Source: Hydrurus foetidus
Taxonomy: Eukaryota
Reading direction: 5' to 3'
DNA: 64,000 nt
NCBI GenBank assembly: GCA_900617105.1
Contig: UYFQ01000005.1
Location: 186,001-250,000, forward strand
The notes beneath the pieces were generated by a model. That model saw nothing but the letters and a program-made list of their open reading frames with translations, did no database searches and had not been told where the DNA came from. Position 1 is the first letter of the stretch, and every line of letters begins with the position of its first letter. Position numbers and translations under genes: made by a program. This document shows, one piece after another, positions 16,039-21,857 of this stretch.

Positions 16039-16244
16039 TCGGAGCGCACCTTGTCTTGGTAGGCCATGCCATCGGTATGACGGTCTTTCCACAGGCCAAA
16101 GGCTTGGTCTGGCGCGGGCTTGTGCAGGGCGATGTAGGACGTGATGGCTTGGCGCACCAATTCTGCCCGCGAAATTTTTTGGGCATGGCAAATGGTTTTC
16201 AGCACTTCGATTTGAACATCAGGGATATCAACGAGAGATCGCAT
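16032..16244 (-). CDS. vapB: RHH/CopG antitoxin
   Basis: SRAELVRQAI, AFGLW, R.EW; overlaps the vapC start. Confidence 0.85.
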   Translation of the reverse strand: MRSLVDIPDVQIEVLKTICHAQKISRAELVRQAITSYIALHKPAPDQAFGLWKDRHTDGMAYQDKVRSEW

Positions 16245-16345
16245 GGCGGCTTCCTTTGCTTGATGATATCAAAATTTGATATCAAACTGCATCTCATAAA
16301 CAAGGCGCAATGAAGCCACACACCATTGGAATCAACGGACTGACA
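16115..16345 (+). repeat. Direct repeat copy 1 (vapB plus promoter); copy 2 at 21697-21857
   Basis: Manual alignment; shared blocks include CGGGCTTGTGCAGGGCGAT, TTCTGCCCGCGAAATTTTTTGGGC, AATGAAGCCAC, GGACTGACA. Confidence 0.85.
16264..16284. promoter_or_regulatory. Probable vapBC operator
   Basis: Perfect 10-bp inverted repeat TGATATCAAA-A-TTTGATATCA 20 bp upstream of vapB. Confidence 0.65.
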
Positions 16346-16350
16346 CAATA

Positions 16351-16438
16351 GTTCAACGCCACAGGTAAGCCGCACCGGAGTGCGAAGCGCGGAGGCATTA
16401 TGTTGCGATTGATTGTTGAAGGCATGCTGTGGTTAAGC
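16351..16438 (-). other. attC site (degenerate)
   Basis: R'' GCTTAAC overlapping the cassette stop and R' GTTGAAC; L boxes pair poorly. Confidence 0.55.
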
Positions 16439-17119
16439 ACGATTTAGTCCAAGAGCGTCGCGAATGGCTTCATTGTCTGGCCAGCTTCGATGAAGCAGCC
16501 ACCAAACGCCGGCTTGGCCAATAGCCCGGCCAATAGCGCCAATGCCTTGAAGATGGGTTTGGCAAAGAGATACCACTGCCGATTCTTCCTCTGGCGTAGC
16601 TTGATGTCCATGAGTTTCTAGAGACAAGAAGCGATAGAAGACGGTATAGATATCCAAGACATCGGCCTCCTTGGCTTGTTCCTCAATATTCTTTCGCTTC
16701 GGAATATTCTTCATCTGCGCAGACTCAAGAAACTCTTTAGAAGCGTCTTTGCCCGTGTGCTTGTTTTTGACCTTGGCTTTTCCTGCCATGAGGTTCATTT
16801 TCAGTGCTTTTGCAAGTTCTGACTTGGCTGCGCCTAGATAAGCATGTGCGTTTTCTATAGACCTTACTGCCCAGAGCGATGTGATTAGTTGCTCAAGCAG
16901 AGAACGCGCGATGATGCCAAGGCAAGCCGAATTCAGATCAGTGCCAAGTGCAGCGGTTCCGCGAATAAGTTCCGCCGCTCGACGCATCTGTTGGCGGACG
17001 ACTTCGTCGCGGGGATCGGGTTGGTCCGCTGCTTCAATCTTAGATGCCTCGATGAGTCGAGATGCATCTTCGCGCATTGCCTGAACAAGTTCATCTAGGG
17101 TGGGAGTTGCTGTGGACAT
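16433..17119 (-). CDS. Cassette ORF, DUF5677-like helical protein (possible HEPN-like)
   Basis: ARSLLE and Y..LS..TH motifs; bounded by attC sites. Confidence 0.55.
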   Translation of the reverse strand: MSTATPTLDELVQAMREDASRLIEASKIEAADQPDPRDEVVRQQMRRAAELIRGTAALGTDLNSACLGIIARSLLEQLITSLWAVRSIENAHAYLGAAKSELAKALKMNLMAGKAKVKNKHTGKDASKEFLESAQMKNIPKRKNIEEQAKEADVLDIYTVFYRFLSLETHGHQATPEEESAVVSLCQTHLQGIGAIGRAIGQAGVWWLLHRSWPDNEAIRDALGLNRA

Positions 17120-17129
17120 GAGCAAAAAA

Positions 17130-17204
17130 TCCTAACGACAAGGTAATGGACAAAGTGCGCAGCACTTTGTCCAGCCGCAGGCGACATTGACCGCCTTGTT
17201 TTGC
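17130..17204 (-). other. attC site (canonical architecture)
   Basis: R'' GCAAAAC, 5 bp, L'' GGTCAATG (extra C) ... L' CATTACC, 5 bp, R' GTTAGGA; internal hairpin GGACAAAGTG/CACTTTGTCC. Confidence 0.85.
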
Positions 17205-17220
17205 TTTTTCAATTTATGCC

Positions 17221-17631
17221 TCATGGCGAAACAAAAATATCGGTAATATCTTTTCCGAGACCGAATCTTGACTCGCTTATTATTATTCTATTGTTGACTT
17301 TTAAGTGAGCTATATCTTTTTTAGGAAAGAGTAGTGCCTTTTCGATATAACCATCTTTAACTATTACCAATAAAAAACCATCCATACTTTCAACTTTTGC
17401 TTTATTTAAAGTGCACTGATAAGACTTGCTGTTTGAATTTCTTGACTTAACTTCAATTTTCCCATATTTCTTTGATATAACATCAAAGCCTTTCTGGCAA
17501 TTTTCTGCTAATTCGCCTTCAAGTTTTTTTGCAACTAATTTTTCAATATATTCACCCGTTACACGAGATACACTTCGAAATCCATTTTTCGACAATAATT
17601 TAATTGCTTGTGCAATTTCATCTTTAATCAT
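17221..17631 (-). CDS. Cassette ORF, small PD-(D/E)XK nuclease-like protein
   Basis: GEYIE...KGFDV...IEVKSR; AT-rich. Confidence 0.6.
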   Translation of the reverse strand: MIKDEIAQAIKLLSKNGFRSVSRVTGEYIEKLVAKKLEGELAENCQKGFDVISKKYGKIEVKSRNSNSKSYQCTLNKAKVESMDGFLLVIVKDGYIEKALLFPKKDIAHLKVNNRIIISESRFGLGKDITDIFVSP

Positions 17632-17670
17632 TTCGATGTTCCCGAAGCTGGCTCTAAAGCATAACGTAAT

Positions 17671-18411
17671 TTATGTTTCATTGTTGATGAGTTGTTTGAG
17701 CTGCGAAATAGTGAGCCACGGCCTTGAACGATGAAGTATTTTATGGCAGTTGGAACACACCATTGCCATGTCAGAAATTTTAGTTTTTTGAGATTGCAGC
17801 ATTTCACAAACGGGAATTGTATGGTGAGCCTCAATATAGTTAAGCCCTCTTTCACCATAAGTTTTATGAAAATCAAAATTGCAGACCTCGCAAAAAAGGC
17901 GTTTATTTTTACTTATAAATTGCTCTTTTGCTTGTGAAATTAATGCTGAATTACGTTCCCGTGCGGTGTGTTTTCTTTCAACTATTTTTCCCTCGGGAAA
18001 ACCTTCTTCAGTTCTCTCGTTGTTTTTGAAGTCAAGGCCTTCAATAGCTAAGAACCAGAACTTTCTCTTTTTGTTGTATGGTATAGCTCCCAAACTGTTG
18101 CAATACTCAATATACTTTGAATCTAAATTATCATCCTTAACTAGCTTGCCAAGCAATTTGGTAATTGCAGGATTGGTTTCTTTTCCATCTTTCTCACGTT
18201 GCACGTGTAACTGCATTGTGTTTTTGGAATAGCCAATATAACGGCTGGTAGCGAAACGTAGTTCCTTACCGATTCTATATGCGATAAAGCAATTTCCCTT
18301 CCGTATTAGTTCTGAACAGAATATTTGCTCATCACTCGTGCCCTCGCACAAGTAATCTTCAAATAATTTTAAATTTTCTTCTATTTCATTTTTTGTTGTT
18401 ACTGTGGACAT
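17671..18411 (-). CDS. Cassette ORF, McrA-like HNH endonuclease
   Basis: FPEG..RERN, CEVC, IEAHH, VCSNCHKILH. Confidence 0.85.
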   Translation of the reverse strand: MSTVTTKNEIEENLKLFEDYLCEGTSDEQIFCSELIRKGNCFIAYRIGKELRFATSRYIGYSKNTMQLHVQREKDGKETNPAITKLLGKLVKDDNLDSKYIEYCNSLGAIPYNKKRKFWFLAIEGLDFKNNERTEEGFPEGKIVERKHTARERNSALISQAKEQFISKNKRLFCEVCNFDFHKTYGERGLNYIEAHHTIPVCEMLQSQKTKISDMAMVCSNCHKILHRSRPWLTISQLKQLINNET

Positions 18412-18430
18412 GTGTCGATCTCAAGATGGA

Positions 18431-18552
18431 ATATAACGCTAAGTTCAATGGCAATTTGTAAGTCGTGAATTTGTGGATTATTTTTGCGAAGCAAAACCAC
18501 AAAGACGCGACTTACAAACTGTCCAGTGCCGAAGGCGCGTGTTGCAACGCCT
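18431..18552 (-). other. attC site lacking its R'' box
   Basis: L'' GTTGCAAC, L' ATTGAAC, R' GTTATAT; long internal stem TTTGTAAGTCG/CGACTTACAAA; R'' position occupied by REP-flanked element. Confidence 0.75.
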
Positions 18553-18560
18553 CAGATGCC

Positions 18561-18854
18561 GGGGTCAGGTTTTGCATTGCCGTATACGTTTTTGTTTTAA
18601 CCATCTAATTTGATAGCTTGATACGCAGTATTCATAAGTTAAAAAGCTTGTTTGATGGTTAAAAATGACTGTTTTAGCGGGTTTTTGGCACCCAAATGCT
18701 CCAGCATTGGTTATGAGCCATTTTCAAGGGCATTCAGAAGATACTGAAGGACTTTAAAAATGCATTAAATGGGTCTATAGACCTTGAAAATACTGCATAG
18801 ACAGTTACTAATTTTGATGAACGAATGGTGAAAAATTGCTGCATTGCAAGACCT
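18561..18854. repeat. REP-bounded non-coding element (REPIN/MITE-like); right REP split by IS110
   Basis: Left GGGGTCAGGTTTTGCATTGC; right GCATTGCAAGACCT joined to GACCCG at 20134 is its inverted copy. Confidence 0.65.
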
Positions 18855-20133
18855 CGTATATTCAATCCGCCGAGCAGTTAAGCTTGAATTGTTTGATTGA
18901 ACAGGCTGGGTCGGGAGAGGCTGGCAAGACTTTGAGCATTGAAGCTCGTGGGTCAGATAAGTCCCCCGATCCATTATTCGTTCCATCAAAGATCGAACGG
19001 TAACTTGGGCCGCTGCCTTGTGCTGGTGAGCCCGCATACGAGGTGGATCATGAATGGTAACGAAGCTCCTGAATCAAGCATTTTGGCAACGACTGACGTG
19101 CATGTGGGTATCGATGTATCCAAGCTCAAACTTGATGTCGCACGCCTGCGGCATGGGAAGTTTCGAAGCAAGGTGTTCAGTAACAATGTTGCAGGGTTCA
19201 AAGCACTTGTAGCGTGGCTACTTGAAGATGGCGTGACGCTCAGCCAAGCGCACCTGTGTTTAGAAGCCACAGGCCCCTACAGCGAAGCATTGGCCGTTTG
19301 GCTGTGTGATGCTGGATGGCGAATCAGTGTGGTCAATCCAGCCCGTGTGAAGGGATTTGCCCAAAGCGAGCTGACACGGAACAAAACTGACAAAGCAGAC
19401 GCCGCCTTGATTGCACGGTTTTGCGCCGCGCTTGCGCCCGAACCATGGTGCCCACCCAGCATGGCCATTCGCCAGCTGCGCAGCTTGGTAGAGCGGCTGC
19501 AAGCGCTCAAAGACATGCACCAGCAAGAAGTTAACCGCATGGAAGCTGCTCATGCAACGGGCGACAAGCTAACGCAGACCTACATTCGCGAGCATGTGGT
19601 CTATCTGGAGGCCGCGATCAAGACACTGCAAAAGGCCATTGACGACCACATTGCGGGCGAGCCTCAATTGCACAGTGATGCCCAGTTGCTCGCCAGTATC
19701 CCAGGCATAGGGGCAGTGACGCTTGCCAAAGTCATGGCTTATGCTGGCAATGTTGAGCGTTTTACCAGTGCAAAGGCCCTCAGTGCTTTTGCCGGTGTAT
19801 GCCCTCAGCAACGGCTGTCAGGCACCAGCGTAAAGGGGCGCAGCATGATCAGCAGGCGTGGGCATGAGGATTTGCGCCGTTCGCTGTACATGCCTGGCAT
19901 GGTGGCACTTCGTTACAACCCGCTGGTTCAGGAAATGGCGCTGCGCTTGAGAGCAAAAGGCATGGCCCCCAAGGCCATCATTGCTGCGGCGATGCATAAA
20001 TTGCTGCATTTGATCTACGGCGTTTTGAAAACGCGCAAACCGTTTGATGCGAACTGGGCTAAAAATACCGCCACCTTGATGGCAGATTCCGTCATTTTTT
20101 CAGTCAGAACTGTTGACTTTCAAGACGGTATCT
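18855..20133 (+). mobile_element. IS110-family insertion sequence (IS621-like)
   Basis: CT core at 18853-54 and 20132-33; removal restores GCAAGACCTGACCC; circle junction forms TTGACT-17bp-TATATT. Confidence 0.9.
18861..19049 (+). ncRNA. IS110 bridge RNA (approximate limits)
   Basis: LTG GCAAGAC 18924-30, RTG GGGTCAG 18950-56, LDG ACGGTAACT 18997-19005 and RDG ATACGAG 19036-42 match target and donor halves and sit in two stem-enclosed loops. Confidence 0.8.
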
Positions 20134-20135
20134 GA
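19050..20135 (+). CDS. IS110 DEDD recombinase/transposase
   Basis: GIDVSK, LEATG, KTDKADA, SIPGIG, QRLSG (catalytic Ser); GAGGTGG RBS. Confidence 0.95.
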   Translation: MNGNEAPESSILATTDVHVGIDVSKLKLDVARLRHGKFRSKVFSNNVAGFKALVAWLLEDGVTLSQAHLCLEATGPYSEALAVWLCDAGWRISVVNPARVKGFAQSELTRNKTDKADAALIARFCAALAPEPWCPPSMAIRQLRSLVERLQALKDMHQQEVNRMEAAHATGDKLTQTYIREHVVYLEAAIKTLQKAIDDHIAGEPQLHSDAQLLASIPGIGAVTLAKVMAYAGNVERFTSAKALSAFAGVCPQQRLSGTSVKGRSMISRRGHEDLRRSLYMPGMVALRYNPLVQEMALRLRAKGMAPKAIIAAAMHKLLHLIYGVLKTRKPFDANWAKNTATLMADSVIFSVRTVDFQDGI

Positions 20136-20200
20136 CCCGATAACTTCTTCATAACTTCTGGTTCAAACAACCCTCAATTGACCGCATCACGGGTGGTTCA

Positions 20201-20285
20201 GTCCAACATGGTTTATCCCCCGCGTTCAATGTTCTCGCTCTTGGCTGGCCTTTGTGGCACGGCGGATAAACGCTGATTGTTAGTT
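20201..20285 (-). other. attC-like site
   Basis: R'' AACTAAC overlapping the stop, R' GTTGGAC, inverted GTTTATCC/GGATAAAC; spacing not canonical. Confidence 0.6.
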
Positions 20286-20789
20286 TTGTTTTTCGTCTGC
20301 ATTCAAGTTATTAGGCAAAGCGGTATAATGTCGTTCAAGGTTTTCAATGCCTGCATTAGAAATATATACCACCAACTTTCCAACTTCTGCGTGTGCAGCT
20401 TGAATTTCTTTGAAATCAGATTCAGCTTGACTTGAAAGAGCAGTTCCGCCCATAAGAACATGTCCGTCACAATCAGGATTTCGCCTTATATCTCCGGCAA
20501 ACTTCTTTACAGTGTCGGGAGATAGCTTGCTTTTAGTTGTCTTAACATCAATTCTTGTTTTTACTCTTGGGGCTTCAGACAAGTTTGGCGATTGCTGATC
20601 TCCTCCTGCTGCAACATTATCTAAATACTGCAGTAAACCCTTGGGATGCTCTATCACAAGATCAGCACCGCCATCAGCGGTATTGGTGTTTGTATGACGA
20701 GTAATATCGCATTTTTCTTCAGTTTCAAAAATATGTGAGAGTAATCTAAGTGCTCTCATTTCACCGTCTTTCCCTTTATTTGTGCTCAT
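20280..20789 (-). CDS. Cassette ORF, Mrr-like restriction-endonuclease fold protein
   Basis: GE..A, DGGADL, IDVKT motifs; AT-rich. Confidence 0.65.
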   Translation of the reverse strand: MSTNKGKDGEMRALRLLSHIFETEEKCDITRHTNTNTADGGADLVIEHPKGLLQYLDNVAAGGDQQSPNLSEAPRVKTRIDVKTTKSKLSPDTVKKFAGDIRRNPDCDGHVLMGGTALSSQAESDFKEIQAAHAEVGKLVVYISNAGIENLERHYTALPNNLNADEKQN

Positions 20790-20795
20790 ATTCCA

Positions 20796-21254
20796 TCACC
20801 CTAACTTCAGTACAACAGAGGTGTCACTGCTATATTTATTATTCTTTAAATTAAATATGTTAATGATGTTAGTAAGGGTTCTAAAACGGTTGATTGAGTC
20901 GTCCATATCGCTTGATTTGATATGACCAGAATTTTTTGGGAGCAGGTTTCTTGAATCCCGAAAATCTTCTTTATTAAGTAGTTTTTCCCTATCTGATTTT
21001 AAAATTGACAAAAATATATATTCCAACCTCTTGATAGCTCCTTCAATATCAGAGTCATTGAAGCACTCTATTAAATAGTGGCTTTCAGAGCCTATCATTT
21101 CAAAGACTTTTTTTTCTATTAGAGGGTAATTAATTTGTAACTCACCAAGTAAAGCTGGTGTAACAAAAGCCGTTTCAATTAGAACGGATTTTTTCTCATA
21201 TAGCTTTCCATCGCTCGCTGACTCGTATGCAACGAGATTAATGCTTTGTGACAT
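20796..21254 (-). CDS. Cassette ORF, hypothetical protein (first gene after attI)
   Basis: 152-aa AT-rich ORF with AGAGG RBS; 6 bp from the next gene. Confidence 0.65.
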   Translation of the reverse strand: MSQSINLVAYESASDGKLYEKKSVLIETAFVTPALLGELQINYPLIEKKVFEMIGSESHYLIECFNDSDIEGAIKRLEYIFLSILKSDREKLLNKEDFRDSRNLLPKNSGHIKSSDMDDSINRFRTLTNIINIFNLKNNKYSSDTSVVLKLG

Positions 21255-21287
21255 TGTTTACCTCTTTGTCTGAGAATGATTCCAAAA

Positions 21288-21312
21288 ACCTAACTTCTAT
21301 GTAGACGAGCGT
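21288..21312 (-). other. Putative attI (core GTTAGGT at 21294-21288)
   Basis: GTTRRRY core between the first cassette and the divergent intI start; no attC stem. Confidence 0.6.
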
Positions 21313-21450
21313 CTATCCTGGGATTCCCAAGCTAGACGACGAAATAAGCTGGCGGATGTGGGAACTGATGCAACATCCCGAGCAGCGCAAAGCCGTTTGC
21401 AGCCTTGGATTGAAGGCTGTACACGGCATAAAAAAGTCTCGGTAAAGTCC

Positions 21451-21582
21451 ATGAATTCCGTCTCCTATATTCCTCAATTACCCCGGTTGCTAGACCAGCT
21501 TCGTGAGGTCTTGCAGTTCAAGCACTATAGCTTGCGAACCGTAGAAGCTTATGCACAAGCTGCACGCTGGGGACAGGTCTGA
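21451..21582 (+). pseudogene. intI: Truncated integron integrase (N-terminal fragment)
   Basis: PRLLDQLREVLQFKHYSLRTVEAY matches the IntI N-terminus, then stops; no catalytic domain. Confidence 0.85.
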
Positions 21583-21696
21583 ATACTGTTCGGTTAAGAC
21601 ATTTTTCCGTGAACGAGATATCTTGTAATCTATTGATTTATATAGAAATTTCACTTCTAAACGAACAGTCTTGAGACCTGAGCCTGTGGACTGACC

Positions 21697-21857
21697 CGGG
21701 CTTGTGCAGGGCGATATAGGAAGTGAAGGCTTGACGTACCCATTCTGCCCGCGAAATTTTTTGGGCTTGGTAAATGGTATGAAAGTTTGATACCAAACTG
21801 AACACCACAAACAAGGTAACAATGAAGCCACCCTCCATTGAAGCGCAAGGACTGACA
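21697..21857 (-). pseudogene. Degenerate second copy of vapB and promoter (direct repeat copy 2)
   Basis: Translates AQKISRAEWVRQAFTSYIALHKP; about 70 bp including the start are missing relative to copy 1. Confidence 0.8.

What the first reader, a model, noticed from the sequence alone, without database searches (positions are those of the whole stretch)
18846..20138. IS110 with a fully readable bridge RNA programmed against a REP (GCAAGAC-CT-GACCC)
Seen: target halves GCAAGACCT (18846-54) and CTGACCC (20132-38) match LTG GCAAGACTT and RTG GGGTCAG. Circle-junction halves ACGGTATCT and CTCGTAT match LDG ACGGTAACT (8/9) and RDG ATACGAG (7/7). Guides lie within stems (GGGTCGGGAG/CCCCCGATCC, GAGC/GCTC, GATC/GATC, GGGC/GCCC). 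Circularisation joins TTGACT (20113-18) to TATATT (18857-62) at 17-bp spacing. Known: IS621 bridge-RNA recombination has this layout. Inference: an intact, reprogrammable bridge recombinase with its own target specificity.
Basis: partly seen in the sequence, partly recalled or inferred. Interest (0 to 1): 0.75.

Follow-up and report, generated by a model that had tools for sequence, protein, structure and literature searches.

The report
RNA-guided transposon targeting other transposons' ends
This is an intact jumping gene of a known RNA-guided family whose predicted guide RNA spells out both its own ends and its landing site, and that landing site is the end repeat of a different, little-studied tyrosine-transposase element rather than a classic REP hairpin.

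Summary
Observation confirmed base for base. The element (18855-20133) encodes an intact IS621-like recombinase behind a 195-nt left end that folds as a two-loop bridge RNA (96.6% paired cells over 25 relatives). Guides track targets: 214 of 280 left-target bases in 40 distinct pairs, shuffles at most 177. Other copies in public assemblies share the ends. The label 'REP' needs correcting: the site has no GTAG/CGTC tag and no hairpin. It is the GGGGWSAS-type terminal inverted repeat (TIR) of HTH-bearing Y1 transposases (TIRYT): 30 of 30 such genes carry it within 300 bp, 25 on both sides. The specificity is shared by a wide clade, not private. Extras: both handshake guides and 7-nt right guides sit in the insertion-favouring state; the target supplies the stop codon (65 of 75 scorable relatives); a sister branch is retargeted to attC-like sites. 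Expression and circles were not shown. Known mechanism, new member; this target class was not found in my searches.

The parts
18561..18580 (+). Facing partner arm of the target repeat (starts GGGGTCAG, fits GGGGWSAS 8/8); 17/20 identical to the reconstituted target arm, 260 bp away; the pair bounds a gene-less MITE-like unit
   Evidence: motif
18846..18852 (+). Left target half (GCAAGAC), part of the TIR arm 18841-18854
   Evidence: other copies keep it
18853..18854 (+). Left CT core
18855..18862 (+). Right donor half (18855-59) overlapping the -10 box (18857-62) of the junction promoter
   Evidence: activity inferred from IS621
18869..19049 (+). Predicted bridge RNA, about 180 nt (5' end inferred from the -10 box); 5' stem-loop 18875-18899
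18907..18973 (+). Target-binding loop: LTG 18924-32, inner stem 18934-47, RTG 18950-56, handshake AT 18957-58
18991..19049 (+). Donor-binding loop: LDG 18997-19005, inner stem 19007-33, RDG 19036-42, handshake GT 19043-44
19050..20135 (+). IS110 recombinase, 361 aa, D22/E72/D114/D117 and S257; runs through the right end, stop codon completed by the target
20113..20118 (+). -35 box of the junction promoter, inside the coding sequence
20125..20133 (+). Left donor half (20125-31) and right CT core (20132-33)
20134..20139 (+). Right target half, outer end of the TIR arm (reads CGGGTCAG on the minus strand with the core, 7/8 to GGGGWSAS)
20140..20159 (+). 9-nt direct repeat just outside the TIR end, a signature frequent outside TIRYT TIRs

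Best explanation
The stretch is an intact IS621-like IS110 element whose left end is predicted to make a bridge RNA that would steer the recombinase to a CT 6-7 bases inside the terminal inverted repeat (TIR) of HTH-bearing Y1 tyrosine-transposase elements (TIRYT/TIRtrons) and their dispersed copies. Steps: (1, inferred from IS621) the element excises as a circle, joining -35 and -10 into a promoter; (2, inferred) the ~180-nt RNA is made; (3, shown by sequence and co-change) LTG/RTG read the TIR, LDG/RDG read the circle junction; (4, inferred from structures) a DEDD/Ser tetramer swaps strands at CT, with both handshake dinucleotides pairing only after the swap, favouring insertion over excision; (5, shown) insertion completes the recombinase stop codon. 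The repeat is a multi-copy, non-coding landing site kept up by another mobile element.
For: Protein: PF01548 + PF02371, NF033542 225 bits vs cut-off 140, IS621 E 5e-77, catalytic residues aligned. RNA: 96.6% paired cells vs 81.0 shuffled and at most 46.5 slid; 20 of 25 pairs change on both sides. Guides: left 214/280 in 40 distinct pairs vs shuffle mean 138, max 177; of 18 elements with a guide 3+ bases off this one, 15 match their own guide better; right 269/275 (n=55) vs max 264; RDG 46/46; target-loop handshake fits donor bases 6-7 in 54 of 55, including 8 with both changed. Ends: other flanks join at 18842-47 and 20138 in six runs. Target: exact 13-mer in 97 of 301 genomes, up to 75 copies, reversed control at most 2; within 300 bp of 30 of 30 TIRYT-like genes, both sides in 25; 31 of 49 TIRYT-positive vs 66 of 252 other genomes, p 1e-6; IS core 39-40 nt from a TIRYT start in L048 and L150; flanking duplication signature 14/33 vs 1/33, and 37/78 vs 3/78 at TIRYT loci; published consensus GGGGWSAS.
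Against: No transcript and no circle junction seen: no joint in 7 DNA contig sets, and the one RNA run laid no read, which is no test. The host genome is not held, so a TIRYT gene and the repeat count in this host are unknown; no TIRYT gene lies between the two arms. The TIRYT query was picked because it lay beside the repeat, so its kin are expected to share it. Shuffles ignore kinship: the tree shows only a few independent guide changes (quick tree). Only 15 of 56 insertion sites have a facing arm within the upstream DNA held and 6 of 24 repeat copies do. Some sites fit poorly (L031, L033, L034, L037, L082) and one copy in run X4 lacks GACCC after the core. 18 of 49 TIRYT-positive genomes lack the exact 13-mer.
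Confidence: 0.85

Rival explanations
1. Same bridge mechanism, but the target is a classic REP/BIME hairpin as for IS621, and a target stem-loop helps recognition as for ISPpu10.
For: The repeat is dispersed, high-copy and often in facing pairs 20-100 nt apart that can fold; the neighbouring Y1 protein scores 77.2 bits on the RAYT model NF047646; ISPpu10 uses a target stem-loop (abstract).
Against: No GTAG/CGTC tag within 30 nt, empty site folds at only -2.8/-3.8 kcal/mol; the RAYT score is under the cut-off of 80; the Y1 proteins carry an HTH and are bracketed by inverted arms; most sites have no near partner arm.
Confidence: 0.08
2. The element is a complete but now inactive relic; the guides are readable only because decay has not yet erased them.
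For: No circle or RNA seen; insertion-biased handshakes would make excision rare.
Against: ORF and catalytic residues intact; in run X1 the body collapses into one contig with 1 difference and depth 219 against 52 on the flanks, with several different flanks; 95-99% alike copies at other sites in other studies.
Confidence: 0.05
3. The match to the TIR is incidental: the element recognises a short motif by protein or inserts loosely, and the loops merely record past flanks.
For: Outer LTG positions 1-2 match in only 22 of 40 pairs; several off-target sites.
Against: Positions 3-7 match in 32-36 of 40; guides and flanks change together, also in nested branches; RNA guidance is shown for IS621 and ISEc21.
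Confidence: 0.02

Closest known systems
IS621 and ISCro4/IS622 bridge recombinases (PMC11208160 passages and supplements 3-6 searched; PMC11208158 passages and section 11; PMC13626964 abstract and section 6; PDB 8wt6, 9t56)
   Same: DEDD + Ser recombinase (E 5e-77), left-end RNA with 5' stem-loop and two guide loops, CT core, junction promoter, handshake dinucleotides, near-identical donor, insertion into a dispersed repeat.
   Different: Target is a TIRYT TIR, not a REP; RTG and RDG are contiguous 7-mers and both handshakes fully pair after exchange, the state that was engineered into IS621; the ORF runs through the right end and takes its stop from the target; 361 aa with a longer tail.
IS4321/IS5075 (IS1111 group), known here only from the cited title in PMC11187229 and PMC11208160
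   Same: IS110-family element aimed at the terminal inverted repeats of another transposon.
   Different: Those are IS1111-group elements (downstream RNA, sub-terminal repeats) aimed at Tn21-family ends; this is an IS110-group element aimed at Y1-transposase TIRs.
TIRYT/TIRtrons, TnpA-REP subclass 2.1 (PMC3733652 passages; 10.1101/279083 passages and section 19)
   Same: GGGGWSAS arms flanking Y1+HTH genes; moderate repeat families in singles, dimers and clusters.
   Different: The passages I read do not mention an IS inserting into these TIRs; TIRYT activity is untested there.
IS1111-attC group, ISKpn4/ISPst6 (PMC11187229 passages)
   Same: A sister branch of this clade also lands in attC-like sites.
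   Different: That branch is IS110-group with a left-end RNA and inserts in the RYYYAAC box; the window's own element does not target attC.

Membership tests
IS110 group bridge recombinase (IS621-like) | DEDD RuvC domain plus Tnp domain with catalytic Ser | tested here: met
IS110 group bridge recombinase (IS621-like) | Long left non-coding end, short right end, no long sub-terminal inverted repeats | tested here: met
   195-nt left end, right end inside the ORF; no inverted pair of 14+ nt joining the two ends
IS110 group bridge recombinase (IS621-like) | Shared core dinucleotide at both junctions | tested here: met
   CT in 55 of 56 left junctions
IS110 group bridge recombinase (IS621-like) | RNA fold with two guide-bearing internal loops | tested here: met
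   (25 sequences; structure taken from the window's fold)
IS110 group bridge recombinase (IS621-like) | Guides co-vary with target and donor | tested here: met
   few independent events
IS110 group bridge recombinase (IS621-like) | Circular intermediate with junction promoter | tested here: inconclusive
   motif present; no joint in 7 contig sets, which drop rare forms
IS110 group bridge recombinase (IS621-like) | RNA expressed, bound, and needed for recombination | not testable with these tools
   no RNA holder listed; bench work needed
Classic REP (GTAG/CGTC) as target | GTAG or CGTC tag at one end | tested here: not met
Classic REP (GTAG/CGTC) as target | 20-40 bp self-complementary hairpin | tested here: not met
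   empty site -2.8/-3.8 kcal/mol
Classic REP (GTAG/CGTC) as target | Many dispersed copies per genome | tested here: met
   in related genomes up to 75; host genome not held
TIRYT terminal inverted repeat as target | GGGGWSAS motif | tested here: met
   8/8 partner arm, 7/8 target arm; consensus
TIRYT terminal inverted repeat as target | Brackets a Y1 (HUH) transposase gene with C-terminal HTH as inverted arms | tested here: met
   25 of 30 both sides, 5 one side; Y1_Tnp and HTH; shown in other genomes, not in this window
TIRYT terminal inverted repeat as target | Bound, cut or moved by the TIRYT protein | not testable with these tools
   also untested in PMC3733652

The most novel reading that the evidence does not exclude
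A widespread clade of bridge recombinases is a dedicated parasite of TIRYT/TIRtron ends, and has switched by a few guide changes between TIRs and integron attC sites while always keeping a target-made stop codon (TGA or TAA), so that the circle would encode a longer recombinase than the inserted copy: a natural record of guide reprogramming under a coding constraint, in a scaffold already set for efficient insertion.
Probability: 0.55. Interest if true: 0.58.

Novelty: new member of a known kind. Interest (0 to 1): 0.42.

Why it matters
The mechanism is the published one, so the surprise is modest. What is added: a target class for bridge RNAs that I did not find in print (searches; supplements); dozens of natural guide/target pairs, including paired handshake changes and a switch to attC-like sites, that can test targeting rules; a natural RNA already carrying the extended right guides and post-exchange handshakes that raise IS621 insertion, which makes it a reasonable tool candidate; and a marker for finding the poorly studied TIRtrons.

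Tried and rejected
Host genome: not held. Rfam: only a sub-threshold miRNA hit on a nearby hairpin. Plasmid collection: no recombinase match at 1e-90 and no match to the L078 attC-like site. RNA: no RNA holder listed; run X23 laid 0 reads, no test. Circle or empty-site joints: none in contigs, no evidence either way. The 260-bp spacer has no relative among my loci and one 29-nt hit in 401 genomes. A guide pattern for the attC-type branch found 0 of 25 genomes. My first attC test used too narrow a pattern and found 0 of 11; the wider one passed 1 of 11 own sites. A motif search of papers returned only unrelated listings. In some searches the left junction was mis-anchored on the guide for the few loci where guide equals target (extension 0 for L036, L040, L051, L073 is that artefact). 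The LTG of L082 was mis-called and left in. The tree is the quick version. Rejected: IS1111 group (RNA is upstream), classic REP, chance match.

Full report
Observation. The four guide matches together were found in 0 of 20,000 dinucleotide shuffles of the left end. The element runs 18855-20133 between two CT cores. The ORF is 19050-20135, 361 aa, with PF01548 and PF02371, NCBIfam NF033542 at 225 bits against a cut-off of 140, and best solved relatives IS621 and ISCro4 (E 5e-77 and 1e-75). D22, E72, D114, D117 and S257 align with the IS621 catalytic motifs.

The RNA. The left end folds at z = -2.66 into a 5' stem-loop and two guide loops as described for IS621 (passages). On 25 sequences (the window and 24 of 46 relatives with usable ends, chosen for spread) the five stems taken from the window's fold give 96.6% paired cells against 81.0% shuffled and at most 46.5% when slid; 20 of 25 pairs change on both sides.

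Guides follow targets. I fetched 2 genome and 80 metagenome loci. Of these 83 elements, window included, 66 had enough upstream DNA; L074 (no RNA-like end), L015 and L019 (no guide call) were dropped, leaving 63. Left target versus LTG: 214 of 280 bases in 40 distinct pairs, shuffle mean 138, maximum 177 of 10,000; positions 3-7 match in 32-36 of 40, positions 1-2 in 22 of 40. Of 18 elements whose guide differs from this one at three or more bases, 15 fit their own guide better; L031 and L038 fit the window's guide better and L082 was mis-called. Right target versus RTG: 269 of 275 (n = 55), maximum shuffle 264; 7 elements have both changed to the AACCC type, 3 have that guide on a GACCC site. 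RDG matches 46 of 46. These shuffles ignore kinship. A quick tree (63 distinct rows; L016, L031 dropped as short) puts the AACCC-guide elements in one branch with two TIR-type members nested inside, and the changed-handshake elements in one branch with one nested pair of the other type, so the independent events are few.

Handshakes. The target-loop dinucleotide after the RTG complements donor bases 6-7 in 54 of 55 elements, including 8 where both differ. In the window the donor-loop dinucleotide also complements target bases 6-7; 5 of 47 elements have both bases so. In IS621, pairing after strand exchange, with extended RTG and RDG, raises insertion and lowers excision (sections read). This RNA has that state naturally, so insertion bias is predicted, not shown.

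Ends and activity. In run X1, which may be the source sample, the body is one contig with one difference, depth 219 against 52-53 on the flanks (suggestive of about four copies; the tool warns that depth is no copy number), with other flanks joining at 18842-18847 and 20138. Runs X4, X5, X9 and X10 show other flanks at the same left boundary, X5 at the same right one, and one X4 contig leaves straight after the right core. No circle joint was seen, and no RNA run held the stretch.

The target is not a classic REP. The empty site has no GTAG/CGTC tag within 30 nt and folds at -2.8 or -3.8 kcal/mol. It is nevertheless a real repeat: the exact 13-mer occurs in 97 of 301 genomes of the order holding L001, up to 75 times, the reversed control at most twice. 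Copies sit beside Y1 transposase genes with a C-terminal HTH. With one such protein as query, 49 of 301 genomes hit; of the 30 loci returned, 25 carry the motif (2 mismatches allowed) as inverted arms on both sides of the gene within 300 bp and 5 on one side. The 13-mer is in 31 of 49 hit genomes against 66 of 252 others (p 1e-6), and 14 of the 21 genomes with five or more copies have a hit. The query was chosen beside the repeat, which biases this. Di Nocera 2013 named such genes TIRYT and gave the arm consensus GGGGWSAS (passages); Quentin 2018 placed them in subclass 2.1 and found no REPs there. In L048 and L150 the IS core lies 39-40 nt from a TIRYT start, in the upstream arm. In the window a partner arm at 18561-80 faces the target arm across 260 bp, 17 of 20 identical, probably a gene-less derivative. 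Short direct repeats of 8+ nt lie just outside the arm in 14 of 33 IS sites (control 1 of 33) and 37 of 78 arms at TIRYT loci (control 3 of 78); the window has one. Against a strict TIR reading: only 15 of 56 IS sites have a facing arm in the upstream DNA held, and the host's own TIRYT could not be looked for.

Stop codon from the target. In 65 of 83 elements the ORF ends on the core T plus target GA (55) or AA (10); 10 stop inside the element and 8 could not be scored. 119 of 120 protein relatives end in DGI, DGN or GGI. In the circle the window's ORF would run on by 49 residues. Both right-guide types give a stop, which suggests a constraint on retargeting; that is inference. I did not find this described: 0 uses of 'stop codon' in PMC11208160, and the passages shown from the seekRNA preprint concern other matters; the other papers of one search were seen as listings only.

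A sister branch reads attC. For the AACCC-guide elements the site reads RYYYAAC wherever the left flank is held (8 of 11). L078's site folds as a full attC-like hairpin; L036 and L079 have an intact look-alike site one gene upstream; a long ORF stops 3 nt before the core in 4 of 8 (two near-identical), against 4 of 29 within 25 nt for TIR-type sites. The other sites did not pass the fold test, three being cut by contig ends, so this is likely for part of the branch only. The attC anatomy is recalled, not from a call. Earlier notes of this scan report IS621-like attC targeting elsewhere; they are leads only.

Comparison and verdict. It works like IS621 and meets every sequence-testable feature of the IS110 group. 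Targeting another transposon's ends has precedent in IS4321/IS5075 (title cited). No paper in the library joins IS110 with TIRYT: the term gave 11 papers, two relevant. The stored Durrant supplements hold no target with this core context and no RNA with these guides, though supplement 4 was cut and supplement 2 unreadable. Verdict: new member of a known kind, with a corrected and apparently unreported target class; interest 0.42.

Noticed in passing
window 16300-21500: Genes all on the minus strand (HNH, DUF5677, three without family) separated by attC-like hairpins near 20289-20165, 18547-18431, 17204-17130, 16438-16351 and 21401-21334: probably an integron-type cassette array. None passed my strict end-pairing fold test; no integrase among 33 of 52 long ORFs scanned. 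The TIR pair with the IS sits between two of these sites.
   Followed up: partly
window 20159-20282 and 18543-18638: Both stretches are multi-copy in run X1 and have other flanks in X4 or X5: a repeated attC-like site and a second element sharing the TIR-proximal end.
   Followed up: no
window 16105-16345 and 21687-21857: Direct repeats of 88% and 79% identity bracket the array, one beside a PIN-domain gene.
   Followed up: no
L036, L078, L079, L051, L054, L041, L042: Sister branch with RTG GGGTTAG inserted in attC-like sites; L051/L054's right flank looks like the left end of another IS110.
   Followed up: partly
L113-L142 and IS right flanks: Short tandem-like duplications directly outside TIRYT TIR ends (37 of 78), perhaps a footprint of TIRYT activity; unexplained.
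   Followed up: partly
window 19003 (LDG position 7): The LDG mismatches donor base 7 here and in most relatives (34 of 55 have this exact pair), but matches in the basal branch and in the changed-handshake branch; conserved and unexplained.
   Followed up: no
run X9, window 18847-19049: A contig carries the whole left end and then leaves just before the start codon: a possible recombinase-less derivative or a diverged gene.
   Followed up: no
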